Positions 40,601 through 53,062 of a stretch of DNA of 64,000 nucleotides are shown here, in pieces; the first letter of the stretch is position 1; each line of letters opens with the position of its first letter. Position numbers and translations under genes: made by a program. The stretch comes from a virus, in the IMG/VR virus record IMGVR_UViG_3300050119_000072, positions 22,656 to 86,655 of that record; one strand, written 5' to 3'. The notes below the pieces were generated by a model, which did not search any database, was not told the DNA's origin, and saw only the letters and a program-made list of their open reading frames with translations.

Positions 40601-43600
40601 GCTTGGCTGGCTGTGCAGGGCGTTGACCTCTCAAAATACAAAGAGCCGGTGCTGGTGCGCCAGCGCGTGACAGAACTCGACGCCGCCGGCCGGCGCGGCT
40701 TTGCGATCGCCGCCAACCAGGCAGCCACCCTGTCAATGTCCGCGCCCGAGCGCGCTTTGGCCGACGCCGACCACCTCTCGTCGAACGTCCTCGGCCTCAT
40801 CAGAAACGGCGCCAACCTCGGTGCCGCCGAAAACCGTCCCTTCGTGCGCGCCTTTATTGCAGCGCTGCCTGCCTCCGAGCGCAGCGCGCTTGCAAACAAA
40901 GCCGGCGCCCTGAGCCAAGAGGGTCTCACGCGGGTTAAAAACGCCGTTCTGGCAAAGGCTTATGGCGACGCCGATGTGATCTCCCGGATCACGGAAGCCA
41001 CCGACGACGAAACGCGATCGGTGTCGAACGGCCTGGTTATGAGTGCTCCCATTTGGGCAAAATTCCGCGGCGAGGTCGAGGACGGCCGCGTGCGCCGGGA
41101 ATTCGACTTGACGCCCGATCTTATGGAGGCGGTCAAGCGCGTCACCGATATCCGCTCGCGCGGAGAAAATCTGGCTGGCTTCCTTGCGCAACATGATGGC
41201 TTTGACCAATTAAAGTCAGAGGTCGAGACCTGGATGCGGATGATGTACGATCCGCATGGCAAGCGGGTCGCGTCCGCCGCTGACATCGCGAAGGCCATCA
41301 GTTTCTACGCCGAAGAGGCAGGCAAGGTAACGACCGACCCGCGCTTGGGTCTCGATATCCCAGAGATAGAACCCGATGAAATCCAACGTGGTGCACATGC
41401 GAAAGCCCAAGACGTTCCGACCGGGGCCCGGGTTGGCAATGGGCCGAGCGGCAATGCGGCTCGGCAGGCACCGGGGCGACGTGGGGCTGGCGAAGGCGGG
41501 GAAGAACCTGGTCGACCAGAGCAACGCAGCGCTGACGGCGGGCGACTCCGCGACCAGCCCAGCCTCTTCGACGAGCCAGGACCCGACGGCAAGCGACAGT
41601 CCGTCCTCCCCGGCACCGAGCCTATCAGCGATGCCCGGCTTGCCCAGCGACGCGCCCTCGAGCGACTGAGGCCGAAGGCTGAGCAGAAGCCTGCGTACGA
41701 AGGGCTATTTTCACCACGCGAAAAGCAGGTCGACCTCGAAGAGGCGATCGCCAAGGCCAAGCCGGAAGGCATCGAAGCCGTCGCCGTGCGCGACCCGCAG
41801 AGCGGCCGCGTCTGGTCGGCCAAGGCGGTTCTCCACCCCGATCTGATCGAGCGGGCGGCACAAGACCTTGGCGTGCCAGAGGACAAGGCAGCGGACCGCC
41901 TAGAGCTTGGTTTCAAGAGCGACCGGGGCAGATTCCTCACGCGCGCCGAGGCGAGCGCCCTGGTGGGCGCCGGCGAGCTCCACGCGACCGAACTGAGTTG
42001 GACCCAGCGGGAATTGGCGGAAGCCGGGGTCGAGTCGTATCCCGGGGCTGCCAAAGCCAAGGCGCCTGTTACGCCAGCCGTAAGGGCGCCTATTGCAAAA
42101 GCGGCCGCCGCACCCAAAATTAAGAAGCAAGGCGCACCTGCTGCCCCCTCACTCTTCGATTGGGAAGAACGCAACAATGAGCGTCCAAGAACTCAAGGCG
42201 ATGGCGAGAAAACACTGGGAGGAATGGCTCCCGGACCGGGTGAAGGACCTCAAGTCACAAGGGCGCCTGAACGAGTCCTTGCAGGGAGCGGCGGACAGCG
42301 CGCAGACGGAGATCGAGCACCTGATGAAGCTGGGCTACCAGGAATTCGAGGCCAAGGAAGTCGCCCTGCCGAAGTTCATCCTGCTGCCGCCGGAGCCGGA
42401 TCAGGACGGCCTGGACGAGGAAATGCGGCAGGAACTGGCGGAGAAAGAAAGCCAGTACCGGAAGTTCCCACCGGTCCAAACGTAAAGCCGGCCGAGCGCC
42501 CGACACTTCCGGCAATCAATTACCGCATTACGGACGAGACCGAACTCGGCAAGGGCTCGGAAGGCGTCAAATTCCGCGACAACATCGCGGCCATCCAGGC
42601 GCTCAAAAACATCGAGCGCGAGGACCGCCGCGCGACGCCCGAAGAGCAGCGCCAGCTTGCGCGCTATGTCGGGTGGGGCGGACTGGCCAATGCCTTCCCC
42701 GATCTCAAGGGCGCATTCAAACCCGACTGGAAAGATCGTGGCGAGCAGCTCCAAGGTCTGCTGAACAAGGACGAGCACAGGGCCGCGCAGCATTCGACGC
42801 TCGCCGCGCACTACACGTCCAAGACCGTTATCGACGCCATGTGGAAGGCGGCGCAGCGGCTTGGCTTCAAAGGCGGCCTCTCGCTCGAAACGTCGCTCGG
42901 CACCGGCAATTTCATCGGCTTGGTGCCTGACGCGATCGCCGGCAAGACGCGCTTTGTCGGCGTCGAACTCGATGGCGTCACCGCGCGTATAGCAAAATTG
43001 CTATATCCGCAGGAAACGGTACTGCACTCCGGCTTCCAACGGGTGCCGATGCCGGACGGCGAATTCGTACTGAGCATCGGCAATCCGCCGTTTGGCTCCG
43101 AATCCCTGCGCTTCCAGCATAAGCCGGCGCTGCAGGGCTACTCGATCCACAATCAGTTCTTCCTGGCTGCGCTCGATGCTCTACAGCCGGGCGGTCTGCA
43201 TATCGGCGTTGTCTCTCATTTCTTGATGGATGCGCAGGATCAGTCCGCACGCCAGGCAATGGCGGTGAAGGCCAACCTGCTCGGCGCCATCCGCCTGCCT
43301 GATACCGCGTTCAAGGAAAACGCGCGGACAGAGGTGGTGACCGATATCGTGCTGATGCAGCGGCGCACGCCGGCTGATGAGAGCCAGATGGCCGAGTTGG
43401 TGCGGCTCGCGAACACGCCTGGGCACGGCAAGGAAGCGCAGGACGCCCGCGCGGTAGCGCGCAAAAAATTGACCGACGAAGCGCCATGGATTGAGACCGA
43501 CAAGGTCCGTGACCCGCTCGGCGGCGAGCCGATGACGGTCAACCAATACTTTGCAAAGCGACCGAAGATGATTGTCGGTCGGTTGGAGCGCTCTGGCACG

Positions 43601-46600
43601 ATGCGGGGCAAAGAGGAAGTCAACGTCAAGCTGGCTAAGGACGCCGATTTTGCCGGCATGCTAGACGCCGCTGTCGAGAACCTTCCCAAGAACAAGATCA
43701 ATCTCGACAACGAGGCGATCGACAACACGCTAGAGCGCTACAAGACGCTCGCCGATAGCATCCAGATTGCGCTCGCCGGCCATGAAGTCGGCCATGTCGA
43801 ATTCAACGACCGGGGGCAACTGACCCAGATCAGCGAGCGCGAAACTCCGTCCGGCGATTACGAGCCGACGCGCCGCGTGCTCAACGCGCAGTCGCCGTGG
43901 TCCCGCAAACTGCTGATGGACCCCAACGGGCAATGGTACACGCTGGAACCAAAGCTCAACGCCAAGGGCGAAAAGGTAAAGACCGGATTGCGCCTGGTCT
44001 ATGAGCGCAAGACGTTCCCCGATAACAAGGTCCCGGAAAACCTGCGGCTCGGCCAGCAGCGCTATGACCGGCTGGCCGATCTCGCTCGCCTGCGCGATCT
44101 CACCCGCAAACAGATCGTTTTAGAAACGCAGGACGCGCCGCCTGCGGATATGGAGAATAATCGCGGGCAGCTTGCGGCGTCCTACCGCGCGTTCACAGGC
44201 AAGCACGGCTTGCTGCATGAGCCGAGCAATATGCGGCTGCTCAACGAAATGCCGGACGGTCCGCTGCTCATGTCGCTGGAAAGCGGCTACCGCCCGGCCG
44301 TGACGACGGCCAAAGCCGCGCGCACCGGACAGCCGGTGCAGAAGCCATCGGCCAAGCCATCTGCCATCTTGTCTCGCCGCGTCGTGCCTAAATATGAGCC
44401 GCCGACCAAGGCCGAAACGGTTGGCGACGCCATCGGCATTGTCCTGTCCGAACGCGGGCGCATGGACCTCGCGCGCATCGGCGACTTGCTCGGCATCCCG
44501 GAGGACAAGGTTCCCGAGAAACTGAGCGAGGGGGACAAGCCGCTTGCCTTCCTCAATCCGGAAACAAAGGATTGGGAAGCGCGCCACGATTATCTCACCG
44601 GACCCGTGCGGCAGAAACTCATTGCCGCGCGCGAGGCTGGCCTCGCCAAGAACGTCAGCGAACTCGAAGCGGTACAGCCCGAGCGATGGGGGGCCGATAA
44701 GGTCACGCCCTATGTAGGGTCTAATTGGATACCGCCGAAGGTTTACGAGGATTTTGCCAAGCAACTGCTTGGCGTCGACGGTGCGGCGGTCAATTACTCG
44801 AAGGCCACCAATTCGTTCAACATGCTCACCGACGAATACGGGGGGGATAAGCAGGCGGAGTGGGGCACCCCAGACATGCCAGCGGATGCGATCCTCCGTG
44901 GCATGATGAATTCGCGTATTCCAAAGGTGATGCGCGAAGTGAGCGACGGCAACGGTGGCACACGGCGCTACGAGGACAAAGAGGCGTCATCCCTCGTCGT
45001 GCTCAAGGCGAACGAGATCGCGAGCGCCTTCGCCGATTGGGTCTTCCGTGACGCCGATAGGCGCAACCAGCTTGTCGACATCTTCAACGACAAGTTCAAT
45101 ACGCGCGTGCAGCGCCAGCATGACGGCGCTTTCCTAGCCCTCCCCGGCAAAAACCCGGAATATGGTTTGCGCCGCCATACCCGCAACGCCATCCGCCGCG
45201 GCATTTACGAACGCAATATGCTGGTCGACCATTGCGTCGGATCGGGCAAGACGTTCCTGGCGATCGCCCGCGCCATGGAGCGCAGGCGCATGGGGCTGTC
45301 GCGCAAGCCCATGGTGGCCGTCCCCAACCACCTGGTCGAGCAATGGGCTGCCGAGGCGCACCGGCTCTATCCAGGCGCCAAGGTGCTCGCCGCCGGCAAA
45401 AACCAATTCAATCGCCAGAACCGCCGCAAGCTCTTCGCCAAGATCGCTACGGGGGACCATGACCTTGTCATCGTTCCGCATTCCTCTTTCGGCTTTATCG
45501 GGATCTCGCCGGAGACCGAACTGCGCTTCCTCGAGGATCAATTGCGGGTGGCGCACGAGGCGGTACAGGCCGCGGCGGAGGAAGCAGCCGCTTCCGGCAT
45601 CGGCGGCTTCCGCAAGCCGTTCACGGTCAAGGAAGCCGAGCGCCTGGTTACCAATATTGAGACCCGCATGGATGCGCTCCGGTCCGCGCGCCGAGACAAT
45701 ATGCTTAGTTTCGAGCAGATGGGCGTCGATGACCTGACGGTCGACGAGGCGCACGAATTTAAGAACCTGTTCTATTCCTCGCGCATGACCGGCGTGCGCG
45801 GCATGGGAGACAAGACCGGCTCGCAAAAATCGTTTGACCTTTACAACAAGGTCCGGGTGCTCAACGAAAGCCCGACGGGCACGGTTACGTTTTTGACGGG
45901 CACGCCGATATCTAACAGCGCCGTCGAAATGTATACGATGATGCGCTATCTCGCGGCGAAGGAACTGCGCGAGCTTGGCATTGAGCATTTCGACGCATGG
46001 CGCTCGCAATTCGTGTCTGCCGAGCCGAAATGGGAGCCAACGGAATCGGGTGGCTTGAAGGAAGTCACGCGCTTGGGCCGCAACTGGTCGAACATGCGCG
46101 CGCTGATGGACCTGTATTATTCCTTCACCGACTCGGTCACTCAGGAAGACATCAACAAGTGGTACGCCGAGGATAACGACGGCGCCGATTTCCCCATTCC
46201 GAAGGTCGTTGGCGGCGGCCGGCAGACGACCGTCGTGCAGCCGACCCCGGCGCAGCAAAGCATCCTGCACCAGGTCATCGACGGCTTTAACGACCTGCCG
46301 AACGAGCCTGACCCCGATGTGCGCAACGCCGAGCGCCTGCGGCTTATGGACCGGGCGCGCAAGGTGTCGCTCGACGCCAGAGCCGTCGACCCCCGCAATC
46401 CCAGCAAGGAAGAGGGCGGCAAGCTCGAGGCGATATCGGACCAGGCCGCGCGCATCTATCACAAGTGGACGAAAGACCTCGGCGCCCAACTCATCTTCCT
46501 CGATCGCAGCGTGCCGAAGGCCAAGGGCGACGACAAGATCATCAAGCAATACGATGATTTGATTGCGCGGCGCGATAAGGCCGTCGCCGACAAGGACGAG

Positions 46601-49600
46601 GGCGCGTTTCGCGCGGTCATTGACGACCTGGACAAATTCAACGCCAACGAGATCGAGGCTCTGCGGTCGGCCCAGAACGGCGGCTGGAACGCTTACGACC
46701 AGATCAAGAAAAACCTCATCGCGCGCGGTGTCCCGGCTGACGAAGTCCGCTTTATCCAAGAGGCCAATAACGACGCCGAAAAGCAGGCCCTGTTCGATGC
46801 TGTCAATGACGGCCGTATCCGGGTGCTGATTGGCTCTACCCAGCGCATGGGCGCCGGCACCAACGTCCAGGAGCGCCTTGTCGGGCTGCACCATGGCGAT
46901 GTGACCTGGAAGCCGTCAGATATCGAACAGCGGGAAGGCCGCATTATCCGGCAGCTCAACAAATTGCTGGACAAGTACGGCAAGGATTTTGCCGTCGAAA
47001 TTCACAACTACGTCACCGAGCGCACGGTCGACGCCAAAATGTGGGATTTGAACTCCGAAAAACTGCGCATGATTAACGGCATCCGTAAGTACGACGGCGC
47101 CTTCAACATGGAGTTTGAGGACGAGGACGCCGTAGGCATGGCCGAGATCGCGGCCTTGGCCTCCGGTGATCCATTGCTCATGGAGCGCGTGAAGCTCGGC
47201 GGCGAAATTGAAAAACTGGAAATGCAGGAACGCGGCTTCCGCCGCAAAATGTTCGGCATTGAGGACGCGGTGGCTGGGGCACAGCGCGCCATCACCGACT
47301 ACCCCGCCAAGATCGTGGAAGAGAAAGCGGCGTCCGACGATATGTATCGGCGGGTCGACGCGCTCAAAAAGGCAGTCGACGCCCGCAGCGTCACGATCGA
47401 TGGCAAAACGTACAAGTCGCGCATGGAAGCGACGGTCGCCGCGACCGACCGCATTGCGGAGATCAGGGGCGCTGACGAGGGCGCGAAATACTCGATCAAT
47501 GTCGACGGCGCCGACCTCACCAACAAGGAGACGATCCACGCAGCGATCGCCAGCGCCTTGGGAGATCAGGAGCCGTTCGAGGCCAAGATCGGCGGGGAGA
47601 CGGTCCGCGGTCGCTACGCCGCGGCCCACGCCATCCTCGAAAAGGTTCGTCCGATTATTTCGGAGATCACGGTCGAAAACCCGGAGCACACGGTAAAGCT
47701 GGGGACCATGCTGGGTGCTGATTTGGAAGCGACCGCGCGCCGCTCGGCTGCCGACGACTTCTACGTGACGCTGGCCCTGCGCCAGGACGGCCGCACCCTA
47801 GCTGCCGCGCAGACGTCGGGCCCGGTCAGCCGAAAAGAGCCGGCGCCGGCGACAATAGCCAGCGGCATCCGCAACCTCGAAAAGGACATCAACAATATCC
47901 TGCTTTCGCGCGGCGCGCTGATGCAGTCCCGCGTGGACGCCGCGAAAAAGGATCTCCCGGGATTGACCGCCCAGCTTGGGCAGACCTTCCCGCAGGCCGA
48001 AAAGCTGGTGGCCTTGCGCGATCGCCAGCGCGATCTCATCAATGAGCTCGATAGGCGGACCAAAGAGGCCGAAGGCAAAGGTGGGCCGCTCCCGACGCCG
48101 CCGAAACTCATTGGCGCCGGCGGCCGCCCCGTCGACGCCAAACTGACGGGCGTCGATGCGGAACAAGACGCGTTTCTCAAATCCAAGGGGATGACCTGGG
48201 AAGAAGCCGCGGCTCTGAGCAACAACCACCTGCGCCAGCTAGATCGCCAGTGGAGCGACGAGCACCCTGGCGAGCATGTGCCGCTGGTGCGCGTTGAGCG
48301 CTTTGATCCGGCTGATATCGAGGCCGATCCGGCGCGCTTCCAATACAGGGACAACGTGGTCAACGCGGAGACCGGCGTTACCGACAAGCCGATGCAATCC
48401 GGGTGGCAGCAAACCGCGCCGATGGTCGTCTGGCAGGATAAGGCAGGAGGAAATTTCGTCGTCGACGGGCACCATCGCCTTGAGCGCGCGAAGGCGCTTG
48501 AAGCGGCCGGCGAGAAGGTGCCGCTCGATGCCATCACCTTGCGCGAGAAAGACGGCATTACGCCGCAAATTGCCAAGGATTTTGGCCAGCGCCGCAATGA
48601 GCATCGCGAGGCCAACCGAGACCTGCGCGCAATCCCGGACGTCGACGATTATTTCGCGGCGGTGAAAGAGCGTCAGGAAGCCAATTCGGAAGCTGGAATA
48701 CCCATTCGCGCCGCCAATTCGGCCGAGACTGGAGTGCAAGCGGTTGGCATGAATTCGTCGGCGGACGCACCGCCCTCGACCCAGCCTTTACCCGGCTCCC
48801 ATGTCTCGACCTTTAGCGAGCCGCCGGCCATTTTCAGCAGCCGCGAGACGCCGCCATCGATCTTTGAAGGACCGACCAGGACGGTGAAGTTCTCGGATTT
48901 CTCGTTGGGTGCCATCGATCCAGCCTCTAAGAAAAATATAGTACAAGGGTCGAGCGATTTCAACGCTTTGCACGCCGAGGCGCAAAAAAACAAGGCCAGC
49001 CTTCTCAATAGGTTAGAAGAAATTGCGCGGGACGTACCAGGCGCAAAGGTCTATGGCGCCCGAGTCAAGGACTTGCCGGGCCTCGTCGAGAAGATCACGG
49101 CCAAGGGTCGCGCTCCCAATACGATCTCGGACTATCTCGGCGCGCGCGTCATCGTTGACAGCCCGGAGGCCATGCACGCCTTCATCGATCGCCTCGATCG
49201 GACCGGCGCCATTATTGAGGCCGAGAATTTCATCCGGTCGAGCAAGTTCGGATACCGCGCCTATCACCTGCAAGTCGGGCTTGGCGACGGCATGTCGGCG
49301 GAGCTGCAACTGGTGCCGCGTCCGCTTGCCGATGTCATGAGCGCTTCGCACGCGCGGCGACAGCCTGTGAAGCGGCTTGTCGCCGGAAAATCTCCGGCAG
49401 ACGACGCGCGCATCGAGCGCGCGTTGGCCGCGTCAACCAAGATACTGGACACCGCCTGGGCAAAGGCACCGGAGGCGTGGCGCACCTATGATGAGGATCA
49501 GCACCAGCAGCCGGCGGCGTTCGCAGAAGAAGCGCCGCAGGGCTGGACCGGCGCCGACACCCTTCCCGACTACACCCGCGCCTATACCGATCTTGGGCCG

Positions 49601-52600
49601 TTCCGCGCCGAGCCGGGACAGCCCTTGGGGCGCCAGGCGCAGGCCCACGTCATTGAGCGCGGGCGCCGCACCGGGCTCGAGCACATGGTCGCCTTTGACG
49701 AGGGCGGCAACGTCCTCGCCAATGGCCATGGTTCGCACCACGATATCGAAGTGCCGGCAAACCTGATTGCCGCGCTGGACAATCCGAAGTCCAGGATTGT
49801 GGTGCACCATAACCATCCGTCCGACGGCTCATTGAGCACGGTCGATATTTCGCAGCTCGCTAGGCCCGGCTTGGCGGCGATCTGGGCGCATGGCCACAAC
49901 GGCATGGTCAGCCGCGCCTCACTCACGGAGTACGCACGCCAGCGGTTTGCCAATGACAGCACCGACAATTTTCGCAAAGCGCTTTATCGCCTGAGCGATA
50001 TTGTCGGCGACTCCTTCCTGGCGCCGCTGCGCAAGGCAGTCGATGGCGGACTCATTACCCCTAAACGCGGCGATCACCTTTACGGCTATATGCTCGGGCT
50101 GGCGCTGCACCGCGCCGGCGTCATCGACTACAGCACCAACCACGCGGAATTCGCCTCCGATCTCGACCGCCTCGCCCTCGGCCCATATATCGATAAAGCG
50201 GCCACGGCCACCGCAGGAGTTCTTTTCAATGACCCACGCTCCATCCTCACTACGGCTGATCGACGAGCCGACACCACTCGCCACATTGCCGATCTGGGAA
50301 CGTCATTTGACCGCACTGAGGCTCTTGCCGGCCGATACCGACCTCAAGCCGGAAATGATCTCGCGCGCCGAGCAAGTTATCGCCCGCAAGAAGGCGGACC
50401 GGGCCAACTAAGACTGCCGGGATTTGCGGAGAGCGCGTCCAAGTTTGGCGGCGGCAAAAAACCGCCGCGGCCGCCAGGCGCTACACCGGACGATCCGCAG
50501 CATCCGGCATCGCGGAGCATCCGCAGCAAGATTGCCGATGCGCTCGGCTCTGAGTTTGCCTTGGCCGCCAAGGAGAAATTGCAGGACTACAACGCCCGCG
50601 TGGAAAAGCTGCAAAAAGAGGGCGAGCGCCTACAGAACATGACGGAGGCGCGCGCCCACGGATGGGTATCGGACAACCCGGAGAGCCCGCTGCCGGACAA
50701 CCAGCAATTCTACACGCTCAAGCGTCTCTTCCCAGGCAAGCGCGACAACGTGCGCCGGGCCTTTTACTCCAAGCACTTTTTGCCGCTGCGCGACCTGATC
50801 CGCAAGTCAGGCATGACGAAGGAACAAGCCGGGGACTATCTCTATTACAAGCACGCGCCGGAGCGGAACTTAAACGTCGGCAAGCTCTATCCCGGCAAGA
50901 CGTTCTCGCATGGCCAGGGCGATCCGATCAGCGGCACCATCAAGCCGGCGCACCCCTTCAACGAAGCCATGCGCGATGAAACCGTTGTCGGGGCCTCCGG
51001 CATGTCGACGAAGGCCGCGCGCGAGGGCGCTGCGGCGATGGAGAACGGGCCCAAGGGTGCGGCGTTCAAAGAGCTTGGGCGGCGGGCTGCCGCCATCCGC
51101 CAGTTCATCCATGAGCAATATCTGCGCGGCCATCTGGAAAGCGCAAAGACGCTCGCCGAATGGCACCGCACAAGCCCCAATTATGTCCCCCTGCGCGGCT
51201 GGGAAGATACTGCCGATGCAAAGCCCTTCGCCGATCAATTCAGCGGGCGCGGCGGCGGTGATATCCGCGGTGGCGAGTCCAAGCGCGCGCTCGGGCGGCG
51301 CACCAAAGCCGATAACCCACTTGTCGGCCTGATCGACCAGGCCTATCGCGCTGTCGATCGGGCGGAGAAAAACCTTGCCCTGATCGGCATGGGGCGCCTG
51401 CTGCAGGGCATCGGCCCGGAGGGGCGCAAAGAGATCGGCGTTGCCTTTGAACGCGGGCGCCCGAAGTCGGTCGTCGATCCCGGCACTGGGTTGGTTAAGA
51501 CTGTTGACGACGCCTTCGACGCCATGCGCGAGAACGCCGTCCACTTCAAGCACAACGGCAATGACCATTACGCCGTGTTCGACGACCTCAAGCTTGCCCG
51601 CGCCATCAAGCGCTGGTCGCCGTGGTCGGTTGCGCCGATCGAGTTGGCAAACCGGATCATGGGCAAATGGAAGAGCGCCCTGACGCATTACAACCCGCTC
51701 TTTATGCCGCGGCACATGGCGCGGTACTACATCGAGGGCCTCGCCAACTCATTCGAGCAGATGGAACACGGCTCGTTTAAGCCGATGAAATACGCGATCG
51801 ACGCGTTCCCGCTCATCGGTCCGGCGACGCGGGCGATCATCGCGCGGGAGCGCGGGCAGCCGGCCGGCGAACTCGGCCAGCATTGGGACGAAATGAAAGC
51901 CGGCGGCGGCGCGTCATCGCTCTTTTCAATGCGCGATTACGACGAGCTGCTAACGCGCCTGAGCAAAGAAGCAAAGGCGATAGGCCGCAAGGGGTACGAC
52001 CCGCGCGAGATTATGTCGATGGTGACGGAAGCCGTCGATAAGTTCACGTCCATGATCGACAACTCGACGCGCCTCGCCGCCTTTAGCCAGGCGCGGAAGG
52101 CTGGAAAGACAATTCAGCAGGCTTCCCTTGTCGCCAGGGAGGCGACAGTCGATTACAACCTCAAGGGCGATTGGGCAAAGGTGCTCGGCACCTGGGAGCC
52201 ATTCCAGAACGTCGCTACGCAAACCGGCTACCGCATGGGGGCGTCGCAAGGGCGCTCCCGCGTCATGCGCAAGGTGTTCCTTGGCATGACCGCCATCGGC
52301 TTTTTGTTGGGCATGTGGAACTACTACTTCGCCGGCGAGGACAAGGACAAAGTCCCATTCTTCGACAAAATACCGGAATGGACGAAGAGCAAGGAGCTTG
52401 CGCTTTATGTCGGCCTCACCGATTCCAAGGGGCGCCCGCAGCCAATCAGTTGGCCGGCGCCGTTTAACTATGCCTTCCCGGTCACCGCCGGATACGGCCT
52501 CGCCAGTCTATTCTTCAACCCGCATAGCTGGCCGCGCCAACTGGCGATGGTCGTTAAATCCTTTCTGTCCTCGTTCTCGCAAATTGGCGAAGATGGGCTC

Positions 52601-53062
52601 TCCTGGCACAATCTAGCGCCGGCGCTCATCCGGCCGATCATGGATCTCGGTTTGAACAAGTCGTGGACCGGCGGAATGATCCACACCCAACCGGAATGGC
52701 AAAAGGGTCCGAACGCTCAATCCGGTTTCCGGTTTACCGATCCGGTATGGAAAGAGGTCGCGCAATTCATCAATAATCACTCAGGCGGTACAGCAAGCCG
52801 TTCTGGGCTTTTGGATTTCTACCCGGAGGATATCCATTACCTCATCAATTCGTTCTTCGGCGGTCAAATGCGGGTGGGCGAAGATATCGCCGCTGTCTCG
52901 AGTGCTGTAGCAAAAGGTCAGCCAATTCCGCTTACAAAGGTCCCGATCGGCAGTATTTTCTACGGGACCGACTACGATAAATCTGACCAGGCAGCACAGC
53001 GCGAACGAGTGCACCAAGGCAACCATCCTTGGGAGCGGCCGATTTTCGGCATCGCCAGATAA
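37634..53062 (+). CDS. Giant DarB-like polyvalent internal virion protein (5142 aa)
   Basis: iPPase-like (GADGDHVDV, QHKVM), ddrB-ParB (QPRER, ESGNGR), N6-MTase (YVGWGG, GTGNF, NPPF), SNF2 (VGSGKT, VDEAH, TGTP, QREGR), ParB (VDGHHR), RelA/SpoT-like (RVK, D..GAR, GYRAYH, ELQ), JAB-like (E...HNHPS...S..D), LPD38-like C-terminus. Confidence 0.92.
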   Translation: MALADQLGAVDPQGIVTGLVADQAPDLVQNDGSVDPQSVLDRLIRKGLSSDQQKALSDAKTNAAPDGIDQFGKTKEQVDAEPQPDFTQFGSATPQSAQPIPGGGTVAGGAWAGAKSLAQAPITATGKAIQAAARTVNDITPTMVQTAGGEGSPLSVEDLTPPPAEPVQKNPVLSKVYNAGQAVRNFGEQQIPVSEAEKKTYPIWTGVGSAVGTLAPLVALGALNPEAAIAGGAALFGGSGSQDTYEAAIAHGADQETASAAANLSGLANAALGSAPIGLVLRPFQKFMPAASGYAVRMLAQAAQNGVVFAGIGEAQEYIGEQIAKAYDPKAGYSLDANRLIVSLLSGGLLGAGHAAYDRYATGKAVSDLYKLNQPAAGGEADDTAPGALPRPDAGPGPGPGPGQGPGPDTGTGAGAGAGPGEAEPEFQPDFSPAKRSTLEKVAAAYSTNLKDGHSAKDISSWSDAQLMAYLNDADKRSNPAKADAPVATPGTPDNPINLQTPQDLAHAVSVADETSSHAQGEANNAPRVHAVWNDLPITLETAGANNVRRGVAEDGTPWEQSMGGPSGYFKGTIGADGDHVDVTVGPQPGSKQVYVIDEKAADTGDFRQHKVMIGFGNQIDALNAYTQRTQGKSAKMVGGVRLFTPEQLKDWLKTGDTKAPLSDTMTAAAKAKDESILPEDAVPTSQHTDAVDGALRAAGVNPDAVRPADKARAAEIHAEGAPADQAFPVAVVRGLVDSGHITPDQVREAIGDEAAEGVLGTGGRAQRGARAETHGAGPGGEAAAPANGVGPRGNEGGNAEAASGGESGEPAVGQKPAGSAAGGEQRRENNGGAGNGAAAGVANDHNVAGSEPGERAEQAHPEHKATETPAAALIGARVKSMPEHKVVAADGKSVRVVPVVTEASKLIASSDPGYDKDIQPRERDRAAAQAQVREIATRLDPERLGYSAEADRGAPIVGPDGMVESGNGRVAALRALYRTKSPNAEHYRAWLAVQGVDLSKYKEPVLVRQRVTELDAAGRRGFAIAANQAATLSMSAPERALADADHLSSNVLGLIRNGANLGAAENRPFVRAFIAALPASERSALANKAGALSQEGLTRVKNAVLAKAYGDADVISRITEATDDETRSVSNGLVMSAPIWAKFRGEVEDGRVRREFDLTPDLMEAVKRVTDIRSRGENLAGFLAQHDGFDQLKSEVETWMRMMYDPHGKRVASAADIAKAISFYAEEAGKVTTDPRLGLDIPEIEPDEIQRGAHAKAQDVPTGARVGNGPSGNAARQAPGRRGAGEGGEEPGRPEQRSADGGRLRDQPSLFDEPGPDGKRQSVLPGTEPISDARLAQRRALERLRPKAEQKPAYEGLFSPREKQVDLEEAIAKAKPEGIEAVAVRDPQSGRVWSAKAVLHPDLIERAAQDLGVPEDKAADRLELGFKSDRGRFLTRAEASALVGAGELHATELSWTQRELAEAGVESYPGAAKAKAPVTPAVRAPIAKAAAAPKIKKQGAPAAPSLFDWEERNNERPRTQGDGEKTLGGMAPGPGEGPQVTRAPERVLAGSGGQRADGDRAPDEAGLPGIRGQGSRPAEVHPAAAGAGSGRPGRGNAAGTGGERKPVPEVPTGPNVKPAERPTLPAINYRITDETELGKGSEGVKFRDNIAAIQALKNIEREDRRATPEEQRQLARYVGWGGLANAFPDLKGAFKPDWKDRGEQLQGLLNKDEHRAAQHSTLAAHYTSKTVIDAMWKAAQRLGFKGGLSLETSLGTGNFIGLVPDAIAGKTRFVGVELDGVTARIAKLLYPQETVLHSGFQRVPMPDGEFVLSIGNPPFGSESLRFQHKPALQGYSIHNQFFLAALDALQPGGLHIGVVSHFLMDAQDQSARQAMAVKANLLGAIRLPDTAFKENARTEVVTDIVLMQRRTPADESQMAELVRLANTPGHGKEAQDARAVARKKLTDEAPWIETDKVRDPLGGEPMTVNQYFAKRPKMIVGRLERSGTMRGKEEVNVKLAKDADFAGMLDAAVENLPKNKINLDNEAIDNTLERYKTLADSIQIALAGHEVGHVEFNDRGQLTQISERETPSGDYEPTRRVLNAQSPWSRKLLMDPNGQWYTLEPKLNAKGEKVKTGLRLVYERKTFPDNKVPENLRLGQQRYDRLADLARLRDLTRKQIVLETQDAPPADMENNRGQLAASYRAFTGKHGLLHEPSNMRLLNEMPDGPLLMSLESGYRPAVTTAKAARTGQPVQKPSAKPSAILSRRVVPKYEPPTKAETVGDAIGIVLSERGRMDLARIGDLLGIPEDKVPEKLSEGDKPLAFLNPETKDWEARHDYLTGPVRQKLIAAREAGLAKNVSELEAVQPERWGADKVTPYVGSNWIPPKVYEDFAKQLLGVDGAAVNYSKATNSFNMLTDEYGGDKQAEWGTPDMPADAILRGMMNSRIPKVMREVSDGNGGTRRYEDKEASSLVVLKANEIASAFADWVFRDADRRNQLVDIFNDKFNTRVQRQHDGAFLALPGKNPEYGLRRHTRNAIRRGIYERNMLVDHCVGSGKTFLAIARAMERRRMGLSRKPMVAVPNHLVEQWAAEAHRLYPGAKVLAAGKNQFNRQNRRKLFAKIATGDHDLVIVPHSSFGFIGISPETELRFLEDQLRVAHEAVQAAAEEAAASGIGGFRKPFTVKEAERLVTNIETRMDALRSARRDNMLSFEQMGVDDLTVDEAHEFKNLFYSSRMTGVRGMGDKTGSQKSFDLYNKVRVLNESPTGTVTFLTGTPISNSAVEMYTMMRYLAAKELRELGIEHFDAWRSQFVSAEPKWEPTESGGLKEVTRLGRNWSNMRALMDLYYSFTDSVTQEDINKWYAEDNDGADFPIPKVVGGGRQTTVVQPTPAQQSILHQVIDGFNDLPNEPDPDVRNAERLRLMDRARKVSLDARAVDPRNPSKEEGGKLEAISDQAARIYHKWTKDLGAQLIFLDRSVPKAKGDDKIIKQYDDLIARRDKAVADKDEGAFRAVIDDLDKFNANEIEALRSAQNGGWNAYDQIKKNLIARGVPADEVRFIQEANNDAEKQALFDAVNDGRIRVLIGSTQRMGAGTNVQERLVGLHHGDVTWKPSDIEQREGRIIRQLNKLLDKYGKDFAVEIHNYVTERTVDAKMWDLNSEKLRMINGIRKYDGAFNMEFEDEDAVGMAEIAALASGDPLLMERVKLGGEIEKLEMQERGFRRKMFGIEDAVAGAQRAITDYPAKIVEEKAASDDMYRRVDALKKAVDARSVTIDGKTYKSRMEATVAATDRIAEIRGADEGAKYSINVDGADLTNKETIHAAIASALGDQEPFEAKIGGETVRGRYAAAHAILEKVRPIISEITVENPEHTVKLGTMLGADLEATARRSAADDFYVTLALRQDGRTLAAAQTSGPVSRKEPAPATIASGIRNLEKDINNILLSRGALMQSRVDAAKKDLPGLTAQLGQTFPQAEKLVALRDRQRDLINELDRRTKEAEGKGGPLPTPPKLIGAGGRPVDAKLTGVDAEQDAFLKSKGMTWEEAAALSNNHLRQLDRQWSDEHPGEHVPLVRVERFDPADIEADPARFQYRDNVVNAETGVTDKPMQSGWQQTAPMVVWQDKAGGNFVVDGHHRLERAKALEAAGEKVPLDAITLREKDGITPQIAKDFGQRRNEHREANRDLRAIPDVDDYFAAVKERQEANSEAGIPIRAANSAETGVQAVGMNSSADAPPSTQPLPGSHVSTFSEPPAIFSSRETPPSIFEGPTRTVKFSDFSLGAIDPASKKNIVQGSSDFNALHAEAQKNKASLLNRLEEIARDVPGAKVYGARVKDLPGLVEKITAKGRAPNTISDYLGARVIVDSPEAMHAFIDRLDRTGAIIEAENFIRSSKFGYRAYHLQVGLGDGMSAELQLVPRPLADVMSASHARRQPVKRLVAGKSPADDARIERALAASTKILDTAWAKAPEAWRTYDEDQHQQPAAFAEEAPQGWTGADTLPDYTRAYTDLGPFRAEPGQPLGRQAQAHVIERGRRTGLEHMVAFDEGGNVLANGHGSHHDIEVPANLIAALDNPKSRIVVHHNHPSDGSLSTVDISQLARPGLAAIWAHGHNGMVSRASLTEYARQRFANDSTDNFRKALYRLSDIVGDSFLAPLRKAVDGGLITPKRGDHLYGYMLGLALHRAGVIDYSTNHAEFASDLDRLALGPYIDKAATATAGVLFNDPRSILTTADRRADTTRHIADLGTSFDRTEALAGRYRPQAGNDLARRASYRPQEGGPGQLRLPGFAESASKFGGGKKPPRPPGATPDDPQHPASRSIRSKIADALGSEFALAAKEKLQDYNARVEKLQKEGERLQNMTEARAHGWVSDNPESPLPDNQQFYTLKRLFPGKRDNVRRAFYSKHFLPLRDLIRKSGMTKEQAGDYLYYKHAPERNLNVGKLYPGKTFSHGQGDPISGTIKPAHPFNEAMRDETVVGASGMSTKAAREGAAAMENGPKGAAFKELGRRAAAIRQFIHEQYLRGHLESAKTLAEWHRTSPNYVPLRGWEDTADAKPFADQFSGRGGGDIRGGESKRALGRRTKADNPLVGLIDQAYRAVDRAEKNLALIGMGRLLQGIGPEGRKEIGVAFERGRPKSVVDPGTGLVKTVDDAFDAMRENAVHFKHNGNDHYAVFDDLKLARAIKRWSPWSVAPIELANRIMGKWKSALTHYNPLFMPRHMARYYIEGLANSFEQMEHGSFKPMKYAIDAFPLIGPATRAIIARERGQPAGELGQHWDEMKAGGGASSLFSMRDYDELLTRLSKEAKAIGRKGYDPREIMSMVTEAVDKFTSMIDNSTRLAAFSQARKAGKTIQQASLVAREATVDYNLKGDWAKVLGTWEPFQNVATQTGYRMGASQGRSRVMRKVFLGMTAIGFLLGMWNYYFAGEDKDKVPFFDKIPEWTKSKELALYVGLTDSKGRPQPISWPAPFNYAFPVTAGYGLASLFFNPHSWPRQLAMVVKSFLSSFSQIGEDGLSWHNLAPALIRPIMDLGLNKSWTGGMIHTQPEWQKGPNAQSGFRFTDPVWKEVAQFINNHSGGTASRSGLLDFYPEDIHYLINSFFGGQMRVGEDIAAVSSAVAKGQPIPLTKVPIGSIFYGTDYDKSDQAAQRERVHQGNHPWERPIFGIAR
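39891..40256 (+). CDS. Candidate nested gene A (+1 frame) after the iPPase domain
   Basis: GAGAGG upstream; GC3-rich in this frame while host frame is a G/A/E linker. Confidence 0.4.
   Translation: MKQPKGYWAPAAGLNAAHALRHMAPALVGRLPRPQMASVHAAMKVGMPKLPAAAKVASPLSAKSPLAVPRAGSNVGKTMAGPATALPQGSPMTTTSLGANPASALSKPILSTKLPKLPPLP
41376..41669 (+). CDS. Candidate nested gene B (+1 frame) after the ddrB-ParB domain
   Basis: GC3 bias moves to this frame; helical-looking core LAMGRAAMRLGRHRGDVGLAKAGKNLV. Confidence 0.5.
   Translation: MKSNVVHMRKPKTFRPGPGLAMGRAAMRLGRHRGDVGLAKAGKNLVDQSNAALTAGDSATSPASSTSQDPTASDSPSSPAPSLSAMPGLPSDAPSSD
42177..42485 (+). CDS. Nested gene C (+1 frame), TnpV-like helical protein, before the MTase domain
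   Basis: 102 aa, strongly GC3-rich, globular helical sequence; host frame shows atypical A/T-ending codons. Confidence 0.75.
   Translation: MSVQELKAMARKHWEEWLPDRVKDLKSQGRLNESLQGAADSAQTEIEHLMKLGYQEFEAKEVALPKFILLPPEPDQDGLDEEMRQELAEKESQYRKFPPVQT
48673..48915 (-). CDS. Nested antisense gene D between ParB and RelA/SpoT-like domains
   Basis: 80 aa, GAGG/GGA upstream, own promoter, globular-looking VETWEPGKGWVEGG. Confidence 0.7.
   Translation of the reverse strand: MAPNEKSENFTVLVGPSKIDGGVSRLLKMAGGSLKVETWEPGKGWVEGGASADEFMPTACTPVSAELAARMGIPASELAS
48935..48963 (-). promoter_or_regulatory. Sigma70 promoter embedded in the giant CDS
   Basis: TTGAAA-N17-TATATT in a local AT-rich patch 20 nt upstream of ATG 48915. 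Confidence 0.7.
50229..50411 (+). CDS. Nested gene E (+1 frame) after the JAB-like domain
   Basis: CAGGAG RBS 10 nt upstream; 60 aa helical hairpin-like LIDEPTPLATLPIWERHL...ISRAEQVIA. Confidence 0.65.
   Translation: MTHAPSSLRLIDEPTPLATLPIWERHLTALRLLPADTDLKPEMISRAEQVIARKKADRAN

What the first reader, a model, noticed from the sequence alone, without database searches (positions are those of the whole stretch)
48673..49450. Antisense gene with its own promoter immediately upstream of the RelA/SpoT-like domain
Seen: on the minus strand TTGAAA-N17-TATATT (48963-48935), then GAGG/GGA and ATG 48915 opening an 80-aa ORF with a globular-looking core (LKVETWEPGKGWVEGG...ELAARMGIP). The promoter explains the AT-rich patch encoding KKNIVQ in the host frame. 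Established: small alarmone synthetase toxins (toxSAS) are neutralised by adjacent small antitoxins. Inference: this ORF is the antitoxin for the RelA/SpoT-like domain, or for the ParB domain on its other side, and is transcribed by host RNA polymerase independently of late genes.
Basis: partly seen in the sequence, partly recalled or inferred. Interest (0 to 1): 0.85.

Follow-up and report, generated by a model that had tools for sequence, protein, structure and literature searches.

The report
Antisense inhibitor gene inside giant phage gene
A small gene, read backwards inside a 15-kb phage gene, is conserved with its own promoter in related phages and probably makes an inhibitor of the alarmone-synthetase-like enzyme domain encoded next to it on the other strand.

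Summary
The minus strand carries TTGAAA-N17-TATATT (48963-48935), GAGG (48927-48924) and ATG 48915, which opens an 80-aa ORF ending at 48673. It lies inside a 5142-aa phage polyvalent protein gene.

ORF length alone means nothing. The gene holds 39 antisense ORFs of 80 aa or more.

Comparative evidence shows a real gene. Nine relatives were fetched through sense-strand patterns in the RelA/SpoT domain. In all 10 loci the same antisense frame is open for 73-87 codons.

I resampled only sense third positions.
- Antisense protein similarity is about 10-11 SD above null in the overlap block and at null in the adjacent domain.
- The constraint sits only where the third base changes the antisense residue: 86.5% vs 55.4%.
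- The ribosome-binding site, the promoter match and the stop placement clearly exceed null; the start codon does so only modestly.

The family has 35 metagenomic members, including multi-domain forms, with no Pfam or PDB relative. A co-fold with the RelA/SpoT-like domain scores 0.84 against 0.00 for the best control, over the catalytic motifs.

The likeliest reading is a nested inhibitor or immunity gene. Toxicity, neutralisation and expression are untested.

The parts
37634..53062 (+). Host gene: 5142-aa polyvalent (injected-type) protein with InPase, ddrB-ParB, SNF2/helicase, RelA_SpoT and LPD38 domains
   Evidence: ORF list. Pfam hits. Neighbours are virion or ejection proteins and an endolysin.
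48673..48915 (-). Nested antisense gene: 80 codons plus TGA. The predicted fold is a four-stranded beta sheet with a short helix.
   Evidence: Open in 10 of 10 loci at 73-87 aa. Antisense similarity is z = +10.7/+11.0 above the synonymous-resampling null. Split-box test: 0.865 vs 0.554. 35 family members. AF2 pLDDT 75.6, pTM 0.60.
48924..48927 (-). Shine-Dalgarno core GAGG, 8 nt before the ATG
   Evidence: GAGG at the same offset in 8 of 10 loci against 3.1 +/- 1.3 expected (2 of 3000 resamples reach it). Any SD core in 9 of 10 against 3.4.
48935..48940 (-). -10 hexamer TATATT
   Evidence: Aligned -10-like hexamers occur in relatives. Summed promoter matches are 89 against 73.3 +/- 2.3 (0 of 3000). 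The sense strand uses rare A/T-ending codons here.
48958..48963 (-). -35 hexamer TTGAAA, 17-nt spacer to the -10
48695..48919 (+). Dual-coding block: a P/S/T-rich sense 'linker' (GIPIRAAN...LGAID) that is the reverse-strand imprint of the nested gene
   Evidence: Alignment columns 86-164. Both frames are constrained. The sliding-window signal is confined to about columns 80-180.
48887..49480 (+). RelA/SpoT-like (small alarmone synthetase-like) module of the giant protein. The Pfam core lies at about 49061-49312. It is the predicted target of the nested protein.
   Evidence: Pfam RelA_SpoT 28.0 bits, cut-off 27. A profile hits RelP/RelQ/Rel structures, best E 2.8e-9. Invariant R59 K61 D82 R87 G122 Y123 E139 Q141. 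Co-fold score 0.84 vs 0.00.
50229..50411 (+). Second nested ORF (+1 frame, 60 aa, LIDxPxPxxTLxxWExHL motif). The motif is fused to the antisense-gene domain in metagenomic proteins P0166 and P0168.
   Evidence: tblastn finds it in the +1 frame in the window, L003 and L002. +1-frame identity is 0.49-0.67 against a null of 0.29-0.33, z 4.3-5.2.

Best explanation
The DNA just upstream of the RelA/SpoT-like domain codes on both strands. The plus strand supplies a P/S/T-rich linker of the giant virion-delivered protein. The minus strand holds an independent transcription unit: a sigma-70-type promoter, a short leader with GAGG, and an ATG. It makes an ~80-aa beta-rich protein of a new family.

This protein binds the catalytic cleft of the neighbouring RelA/SpoT-like (toxSAS-like) domain and keeps it inactive in the cell where the giant protein is made. 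Host RNA polymerase could produce it before or independently of the late giant gene. When the giant protein is ejected into a new host it travels without the inhibitor, and the domain can act there.

Shown computationally: the gene is under purifying selection together with its expression signals; in protein-only homologues its sense imprint lies directly upstream of the domain; free-standing or multi-domain homologues exist; a controlled co-fold supports binding at the active site.

Inferred: translation in vivo, toxicity of the domain, inhibition, timing, and loss of the inhibitor at ejection.
For: (1) Loci. Nine relatives were fetched with sense-strand patterns inside the RelA/SpoT domain, so the search was blind to the antisense frame. 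In 10 of 10 loci the sense frame is open for at least 1075 codons and the antisense frame sharing third positions is open for 73-87 aa.

(2) Third-position resampling, 2000 draws, two codon models.
- Overlap block: antisense BLOSUM sum 5841 against about 4640 +/- 110 (z +10.7/+11.0; 0 of 2000 reach it). Stops 0 against 4.5-5.1 expected.
- Control block (RelA/SpoT domain, same frame): z -0.6/-1.1, stops 51 against 46-49.

(3) Specificity.
- At antisense four-fold boxes, third-base identity is 0.365 against 0.389 (z -0.9).
- At split boxes the antisense residue is kept in 0.865 of pairs against 0.554 (z +10.5).
- In the control block the z values are 0.7 and 1.3.

(4) Frame and subset controls.
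- Only this one of five alternative frames shows the signal: z 10.0 against 1.4 or less.
- Divergent subsets give z 4.8-6.7.
- The signal is confined to the ORF and its upstream region.

(5) Expression signals beyond the sense-protein requirement.
- SD core in 9 of 10 loci against 3.4 expected (2 of 3000).
- Promoter matches 89 against 73.3 +/- 2.3 (0 of 3000).
- ATG in 8 of 10 against 5.0 (89 of 3000).
- Stop within 12 codons of the conserved block in 8 of 9 loci against 1.5 +/- 1.0 (0 of 3000).

(6) Family. There are 35 members. They include P0165 with two tandem copies and P0162, P0166 and P0168 with other N-terminal regions. Invariant residues are D20 G21 R25 E37 W39 W45 P62. AF2 pLDDT is 75.6.

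(7) Linkage.
- The domain follows the ORF in all 10 loci, which is by construction of the fetch.
- The other neighbour varies.
- The sense imprint lies directly upstream of the domain in 47 of the 48 homologues where it was detected.

(8) Co-fold.
- ipSAE is 0.84 (runs 0.88, 0.79, 0.84) against a best of 3 controls of 0.00.
- In the tool's calibration this mark was reached by 58 of 80 solved complexes and 2 of 110 mismatched pairs.
- The runs share at least 81% of contacts, and partner pLDDT is at least 83.
- Small-protein D20-G22 touch T79-D82. The interface also covers G122-H127 and the N-terminal K15-V19 motif.
- No like complex was detected by sequence or fold.

(9) Catalytic motifs of the domain are intact.
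Against: - The start codon is GTG in L003 and ATC in L005. ATG conservation is only modestly above null (89 of 3000).
- The family shows no similarity to known toxSAS antitoxins or immunity proteins. Pfam found nothing and a PDB profile search found nothing at E up to 10.
- The RelA_SpoT Pfam score (28.0) is only just over its cut-off of 27. Nothing here shows the domain is toxic.
- 74 of 122 sense homologues with enough upstream sequence gave no hit to my 10-sequence HMM of the sense imprint. By eye some of these carry a diverged version, while others (P0053, P0062, P0072, P0081) clearly have a different upstream region. The pairing is therefore not universal for this domain clade.
- The sense frame of the block is itself constrained (0.842 vs 0.576, z 9.3, with a cruder null). 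The sense peptide may have a function of its own.
- The co-fold is a model built on my own shallow alignments (16 and 15 rows), so its calibration holds only roughly.
- All loci are metagenomic. The genomic context of the longer family members could not be seen.
- The codon models are approximations.
Confidence: 0.6

Rival explanations
1. The gene is real and binds the RelA/SpoT-like domain, but its role is different. It could give superinfection or kin immunity against the same domain injected by related phages. Or it could be a co-packaged regulatory or chaperone subunit that tunes or stabilises the enzyme rather than blocking it.
For: The selection and co-fold evidence is the same. A host-type promoter would allow early or constitutive expression. 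Immunity proteins that bind phage-associated MuF-Apk2 toxins are described in the abstract of PMC12226406.
Against: No tyrosine integrase was found in the complete 86,655-bp genome with direct terminal repeats, so a lysogen-protection role has no support. The predicted interface covers the catalytic motifs, which fits inhibition better than activation.
Confidence: 0.22
2. The ORF is a shadow ORF of a GC-rich gene. Its apparent conservation is a by-product of selection on the sense protein or on an RNA or DNA element, and no protein is made.
For: Antisense ORFs of 80 aa or more cover 81% of the giant gene. In this frame the two proteins share third positions, so conservation of one carries over to the other. 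The sense frame is constrained too.
Against: Third positions are constrained only where they change the antisense residue: z +10.5 against -0.9 at four-fold boxes. There is no signal in the other four frames or in the adjacent domain. SD, stop and promoter are all above null. Multi-domain homologues carry the same domain. The fold is predicted with confidence.
Confidence: 0.06
3. The small protein is the partner of the ParB-like domain on its other side, or of the giant protein as a whole, and not of the RelA/SpoT-like domain.
For: In the window and in L003 a ParB-like domain (DGHHRL motif, by eye) lies directly on the other side.
Against: In L009, L002, L005, L006 and L008 the corresponding neighbour is not homologous. 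It is Helicase_C in L002 and RadC in L005. The RelA/SpoT-like domain is present in all 10 loci, though they were fetched through that domain. The co-fold favours RelA/SpoT. A ParB co-fold was not run.
Confidence: 0.05

Closest known systems
toxSAS toxin-antitoxin and effector-immunity pairs (FaRel2-ATfaRel2, FaRel/Tas1-Tis1)
   Same: A RelA/SpoT-homologue synthetase domain is paired with a small structured protein that blocks a substrate site. I read the abstract of PMC11782079 and the search listing for PMC7229694. Here the co-fold places the small protein over the catalytic motifs.
   Different: The small protein has no detectable sequence relation to those antitoxins, and no fold match was found. 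The enzyme is one domain of a 5142-aa virion-type protein, not a free toxin. The partner gene is nested antisense inside the enzyme's own gene, not an adjacent cistron.
MuF-Apk2 polymorphic toxins of temperate phages with their immunity proteins
   Same: A phage-associated multidomain protein carries a RelA/SpoT-like pyrophosphokinase domain that is countered by a specific binding immunity protein (abstract of PMC12226406).
   Different: I read only that abstract and cannot say how the immunity genes are arranged there. Here the gene is antisense and fully nested. No integrase was found in this genome, and the carrier is a polyvalent protein with LPD38 rather than MuF.
Polyvalent proteins (Iyer, Burroughs, Anand, de Souza and Aravind 2017, PMC5512222)
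   Same: The host gene fits the class. It has many enzymatic domains in one polypeptide, including InPase, ddrB-ParB, LPD38 and RelA/SpoT. A passage of the paper says RelA/SpoT domains occur in polyvalent proteins and are proposed to trigger an alarmone-like response.
   Different: The words 'overlapping' and 'antisense' occur 0 times in that paper's main text. Nested partner genes are not described there.
Known nested or overlapping genes (antisense overlapping genes in Pseudomonas and E. coli)
   Same: Two proteins come from one stretch of DNA, and purifying selection is used as evidence for the alternative frame. I saw only the search listings for PMC8850804 and PMC9927249.
   Different: Here the nested gene is antisense. 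It is conserved across loci sharing only 32-66% sense identity with the window, carries its own conserved promoter, and is predicted to bind the protein domain encoded next to it on the other strand.

Membership tests
Overlapping (dual-coding) protein gene | Alternative frame open in homologues | tested here: met
   10 of 10 loci, 73-87 aa. Stops in the block are 0 against 4.5-5.3 expected.
Overlapping (dual-coding) protein gene | Purifying selection on the alternative frame beyond what the main frame imposes | tested here: met
   z +10.7/+11.0. Split-box 0.865 vs 0.554 with the four-fold control at null. Frame, subset and sliding-window controls agree.
Overlapping (dual-coding) protein gene | Own start, ribosome-binding site and promoter | tested here: met
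   SD in 9 of 10 loci, promoter sum 89 vs 73.3, ATG in 8 of 10. Stop placement in 8 of 9 loci.
Overlapping (dual-coding) protein gene | Transcript and protein detected | not testable with these tools
   The phage is uncultivated and comes from a metagenome. This needs strand-specific RNA-seq, 5' RACE, ribosome profiling or mass spectrometry.
toxSAS-antitoxin / effector-immunity pair | RelA/SpoT-homologue synthetase domain with catalytic motifs | tested here: met
   Pfam RelA_SpoT 28.0 bits against a cut-off of 27. Profile hits to RelP, RelQ and Rel structures, best E 2.8e-9. Invariant R59 K61 D82 G122 Y123 E139 Q141.
toxSAS-antitoxin / effector-immunity pair | Domain is toxic when expressed alone | not testable with these tools
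   Needs expression in a laboratory strain.
toxSAS-antitoxin / effector-immunity pair | Cognate small-protein gene genetically linked to the toxin | tested here: met
   Adjacent in 10 of 10 loci, with the other neighbour variable. These loci were fetched through the RelA/SpoT domain, so its presence there is by construction. The sense imprint is adjacent in 47 of the 48 homologues where it was detected, and was detected in 48 of 122.
toxSAS-antitoxin / effector-immunity pair | Direct binding and neutralisation | tested here: inconclusive
   The co-fold supports binding: 0.84 against 0.00 for the best of 3 controls. It is a model only, and neutralisation is untested.
toxSAS-antitoxin / effector-immunity pair | Homology of the small protein to known antitoxin or immunity families (Tis1, ATfaRel2 pZFD, Panacea) | tested here: inconclusive
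   No Pfam hit at E up to 10. No PDB sequence hit at E up to 10. Foldseek best E is 1.0 and VIA best Z is 3.3. A missing fold match does not exclude a relation.
Polyvalent protein (host gene) | Many unrelated effector domains in one polypeptide of a phage or conjugative element, with polyvalent-protein-associated domains | tested here: met
   InPase, ddrB-ParB, SNF2/ResIII/Helicase_C, RelA_SpoT and LPD38. Phage structural and lysis neighbours.

The most novel reading that the evidence does not exclude
Polyvalent protein genes of phages may carry a hidden layer of nested genes in their 'linkers', antisense or +1 frame. Each would encode the cognate inhibitor of the adjacent enzymatic domain, so that effector domain and immunity gene recombine as one self-contained cassette. 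The ~80-aa family described here lacks Tyr, His and Gln across the window's 80-aa copy (by eye from the sequence). It may have arisen, or long evolved, under overprinting. In other genomes the nested peptides occur fused into single multi-domain proteins (P0166, P0168).
Probability: 0.35. Interest if true: 0.92.

Novelty: new variant of a known kind. Interest (0 to 1): 0.85.

Why it matters
Fully nested antisense protein-coding genes with strong comparative support are rare in bacteria and phages. This one has ten divergent loci, internal controls and conserved expression signals.

It shows that 'disordered linkers' in giant phage proteins can be the imprint of a gene on the other strand. Standard gene callers and annotation pipelines suppress such genes.

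It would also explain how a phage can synthesise a potentially growth-arresting alarmone-synthetase-like effector in its own producer cell. It yields a new small-protein family predicted to block RelA/SpoT-type enzymes. And it suggests that effector and immunity functions in polyvalent proteins travel as a single dual-coding cassette.

A second nested ORF in the same gene shows a similar signal, so the phenomenon may be general.

Tried and rejected
- ORF length as evidence was rejected. The gene holds 39 antisense ORFs of 80 aa or more.
- The promoter scan alone is weak: 5 sites against 3.5 +/- 2.0.
- blastn of 48300-49500 against GenBank phages found no match.
- Single-protein scans for relatives in viral and genome contigs found none. 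The A4 scan of genome contigs also found none.
- tblastn of the 80-aa protein against GenBank phages and PLSDB plasmids found no match.
- The ESM Atlas gave no usable hit.
- Fold searches of the AF2 model gave nothing useful. Foldseek against the PDB had a best E of 1.0. VIA wide had a best Z of 3.3, matching propeller-blade-like sheets. This shows neither a new fold nor absence of relatives.
- Pfam found nothing for the ORF, P0001, P0002, P0005 or the +1 ORF.
- Sequencing runs: no RNA holder listed. Two of the four listed DNA runs hold at least half of the sampled words, both labelled peat metagenomes, and one of them may be the source. The other two hold small shares that I did not lay.
- The T7-type RNA polymerase family search of the genome is uninformative, because nothing rang in any control genome.
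- Viral-contig scans with P0165, P0162 and P0164, meant to show the context of longer family members, gave no new locus. P0162 only re-found the contig of L001. Whether these forms are free-standing therefore rests on their sequences alone.
- A strict regular expression for the sense imprint (51 of 122) was replaced by an HMM (48 of 122). Both undercount by eye.
- Literature: searches and a term search inside PMC5512222 found no report of nested or antisense partner genes in polyvalent proteins. Supplementary files were not consulted.
Full report
**Setting.** The window is part of a complete 86,655-bp virus genome with direct terminal repeats. Its DNA is held in peat-metagenome runs. Positions 37634-53062 (+) form one 5142-aa ORF. 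It carries InPase, ddrB-ParB, SNF2/ResIII/Helicase_C, RelA_SpoT and LPD38 domains. It lies between virion or ejection-type genes and an endolysin. This makes it a polyvalent protein in the sense of Iyer et al. 2017 (PMC5512222). I read the passages found, which state that RelA/SpoT domains occur in such proteins. The RelA_SpoT Pfam core maps to about 49061-49312.

**The observation.** The minus strand reads TTGAAA (48963-48958), 17 nt, TATATT (48940-48935), 7 nt, GAGG (48927-48924), 8 nt, ATG 48915. An 80-codon ORF follows, ending at TGA 48675-48673. The elements are real.

Taken alone they prove little. The scan finds 5 promoter-like sites in 16 kb against 3.5 +/- 2.0 in shuffles. The giant gene contains 39 antisense ORFs of 80 aa or more, covering 81% of its length. 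The ORF lies in the antisense frame whose third positions coincide with sense third positions (and my arithmetic). In that frame a stop can arise only opposite a sense Tyr, His or Gln codon, so openness is cheap.

**First hint.** A word-indexed search with the antisense translation found five metagenomic 'hypothetical proteins' at 51-72% identity. They share invariant blocks. In this frame arrangement, conservation of either protein carries over to the other. DNA of relatives chosen without regard to the antisense frame was therefore needed.

**Relatives.** HMMER against 1.84 billion representatives found 751 sense homologues of the ParB-linker-RelA/SpoT piece at E up to 1e-3. Many alignments start at query position 120-150. 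So the P/S/T-rich 'linker' belongs to a conserved module with the RelA/SpoT domain.

I therefore built a small sense alignment (A4) and scanned contig collections. The search patterns lay inside the RelA/SpoT domain ([EKH][VF]Y[GAN][SA]RVKD and R[AP][PA][NS]TISDY). The scans returned 6 metagenome loci and 5 viral loci. Three of the viral loci duplicate others, leaving nine distinct relatives. Their sense identity to the window is 32-66%. In all ten loci the sense frame is open for at least 1075 codons.

**The ORF in relatives.** In 10 of 10 loci the same antisense frame is open over the homologous block, for 73-87 aa.
- The start codon at the aligned column is ATG in 8, GTG in L003 and ATC in L005.
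- The stop is TGA in 9 of 10.
- In four loci (L004, L006, L008, L009) an in-frame stop lies 1-14 codons upstream, so the conserved Met is the first ATG.

**Selection test.** I kept every sense amino acid and codon box fixed. I resampled only sense third positions from each locus's own codon usage, with and without next-base context.
- In the overlap block (75 columns) the antisense BLOSUM sum is 5841 against about 4640 +/- 110 (z +10.7 and +11.0; 0 of 2000 resamples reach it).
- Identity there is 0.432 against 0.384, and stops are 0 against 4.5-5.1 expected.
- In the adjacent RelA/SpoT domain (176 columns, same frame) the observed value sits at null (z -0.6 and -1.1), with 51 stops against 46-49.

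**Internal control.** Where the antisense codon lies in a four-fold box, third-base identity between loci is at null (0.365 vs 0.389, z -0.9). Synonymous sites are therefore saturated and there is no generic conservation. Where the third base decides the antisense residue, the residue is kept in 86.5% of pairs against 55.4% (z +10.5, 0 of 2000). In the control block these z values are 0.7 and 1.3.

**Further controls.**
- Of five alternative frames, only this one shows the signal: z 10.0, with the others at 1.4 or less.
- Subsets of the most divergent loci give z 4.8-6.7, with the control block at 0.1-1.4.
- A sliding window confines the signal to about columns 80-180.

Mean BLOSUM per pair in the block is 2.02 for the antisense frame and 1.81 for the sense frame. 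In the domain it is 0.96 and 1.99.

**Reverse test.** Holding the antisense residues fixed, the sense frame is also constrained in the block (0.842 vs 0.576, z 9.3). The null here is cruder. The block is truly dual-coding.

**Expression signals (3000 resamples).** All were tested against the same kind of null.
- A Shine-Dalgarno core occurs in 9 of 10 loci against 3.4 +/- 1.4 expected (2 of 3000).
- GAGG sits at the same offset in 8 of 10 against 3.1 (2 of 3000).
- ATG occurs in 8 of 10 against 5.0 (89 of 3000).
- The summed best -35/-10 match is 89 against 73.3 +/- 2.3 (0 of 3000).
- A/T at sense third positions in the 12 codons upstream of the start is 62 of 120 against 31.7 +/- 4.5 (0 of 3000).

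The aligned upstream regions show -35-like and -10-like hexamers at constant spacing. In 8 of 9 loci a stop lies within 12 codons of the end of the conserved block, against 1.5 +/- 1.0 expected (0 of 3000). L012 was left out because it lacks those columns.

The AT-rich KKNIVQ patch is thus partly a conserved sense motif (K/R-x-I/V-x-Q). It is also partly promoter-driven codon choice.

**The protein family.** A profile of 15 sequences (A5) has invariant D20, G21, R25, E37, W39, W45 and P62. It finds 35 proteins among the 8000 candidates scored. All are metagenomic, with no name and no Pfam domain.

Several are clearly more than a shadow of a linker.
- P0165 has two tandem copies followed by hydrophobic stretches (by eye).
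- P0162, P0157 and P0158 carry helical N-terminal repeats.
- P0166 and P0168 carry other regions rich in Tyr, His and Gln.

AlphaFold2 with A5 gives pLDDT 75.6 and pTM 0.60, with four strands and a short helix. No sequence or fold relative appears among solved structures. There is no hit in GenBank phages, PLSDB or the ESM Atlas.

**Link to the RelA/SpoT-like domain.** The loci were fetched through the RelA/SpoT domain, so its presence beside the ORF in all ten says little by itself. The informative points are these.
- The neighbour on the other side varies. It is ParB-like in the window and L003 (by eye), Helicase_C in L002 and RadC/JAB in L005. Upstream sequences are otherwise non-homologous.
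- Among 122 protein-only homologues with at least 100 residues upstream of the domain, 48 hit an HMM of the sense imprint. In 47 of these it lies directly upstream.
- The other 74 gave no hit. Some look diverged, and some (for example P0053, P0062, P0072, P0081) have a different upstream region.

The domain keeps the synthetase motifs (RxK, DxxGxR, GYRxxH, ExQ). Its profile hits RelP, RelQ and Rel structures, with best E 2.8e-9.

**Co-fold.** I co-folded the domain (A6, 198 aa) with the small protein (A5).
- The score is 0.84 (three runs: 0.88, 0.79, 0.84), against 0.00 for the best of three controls.
- In the tool's calibration this mark was reached by 58 of 80 solved complexes and 2 of 110 mismatched pairs.
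- The runs agree in at least 81% of contacts, and partner pLDDT is at least 83.
- The model supports binding but does not show it, and my own alignments make the calibration approximate.
- The interface pairs the invariant D20-G22 of the small protein with T79-D82 (TISDY). It also covers G122-H127 (GYRAxH), the C-terminal helices and the N-terminal K15-V19 motif.

**Mechanism.** Structured antitoxin and immunity domains neutralise toxSAS enzymes by occluding a substrate site (abstract of PMC11782079). Phage-associated MuF-Apk2 toxins have binding immunity proteins (abstract of PMC12226406).

The most likely reading is therefore a nested inhibitor or immunity gene. It would protect the producer cell from the RelA/SpoT-like effector domain until the giant protein is packaged and ejected without it. 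I give this reading 0.6, and about 0.9 that the gene is real. No integrase was found. That favours self-protection during lytic growth over lysogen immunity, but weakly.

**Novelty.** The kind (alarmone-synthetase-like effector plus protein inhibitor) is known. What is new:
- the small-protein family;
- its antisense, fully nested position inside the effector's own gene;
- the conservation of that dual-coding cassette with its promoter.

My searches found no report of nested partner genes in polyvalent proteins.

**In passing.** Earlier first-reader notes of this scan list four further +1-frame nested ORFs. I tested one, at 50229-50411.
- Its LIDxPxPxxTLxxWExHL peptide is in the +1 frame in the window, L003 and L002.
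- Its +1-frame identity is 0.49-0.67 against a null of 0.29-0.33 (z 4.3-5.2). That exceeds the sense identity there, which is 0.34-0.53.
- The same motif is fused to the antisense-gene domain in P0166 and P0168.
- P0168 residues 128-174 resemble the window's +1 ORF at 41406-41546.

Noticed in passing
window 50229-50411 (+); L003 4020-4229; L002 4812-4991: A second nested ORF lies in the +1 frame after the RadC/JAB-like domain, with the motif LIDxPxPxxTLxxWExHL. Its +1-frame identity is 0.49-0.67 against a null of 0.29-0.33 (z 4.3-5.2) in three loci, and the Met and stop are conserved. The motif is fused to the antisense-gene domain in P0166, P0168 and P0001.
   Followed up: partly
window 41406-41546 (+): Residues 128-174 of metagenomic protein P0168 match this +1-frame stretch (47% identity, E 8.6e-8). 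P0168 thus looks like a fusion of three peptides that are nested separately in the window.
   Followed up: partly
window 48648-48676 (-): A further promoter-like site, CTGACG-N17-AATAAT (9 of 12), lies right at the 3' end of the antisense ORF. No terminator-like site was reported downstream of the ORF.
   Followed up: no
window 49650-49920 (+): The sense protein after the RelA/SpoT-like domain reads HNHPS...S..D, a RadC/JAB-type motif (by eye). In L005 a RadC-like JAB domain (Pfam E 6.3e-18) lies upstream of the module instead. The domain order is shuffled between relatives.
   Followed up: partly
protein P0165 (family member; no locus): It has two tandem copies of the small-protein domain, followed by hydrophobic, membrane-anchor-like stretches (by eye). 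Its genomic context is unknown.
   Followed up: no
window 48676-48915 (-): The window's 80-aa antisense protein has no Tyr, His or Gln, by eye from its sequence. These are the residues whose codons can create stops on the sense strand in this frame. This fits long evolution under overlap, or origin by overprinting.
   Followed up: no
whole genome (G000, 86,655 bp): The genome is complete with direct terminal repeats, and no tyrosine integrase was detected. Its DNA is held in peat-metagenome runs.
   Followed up: partly
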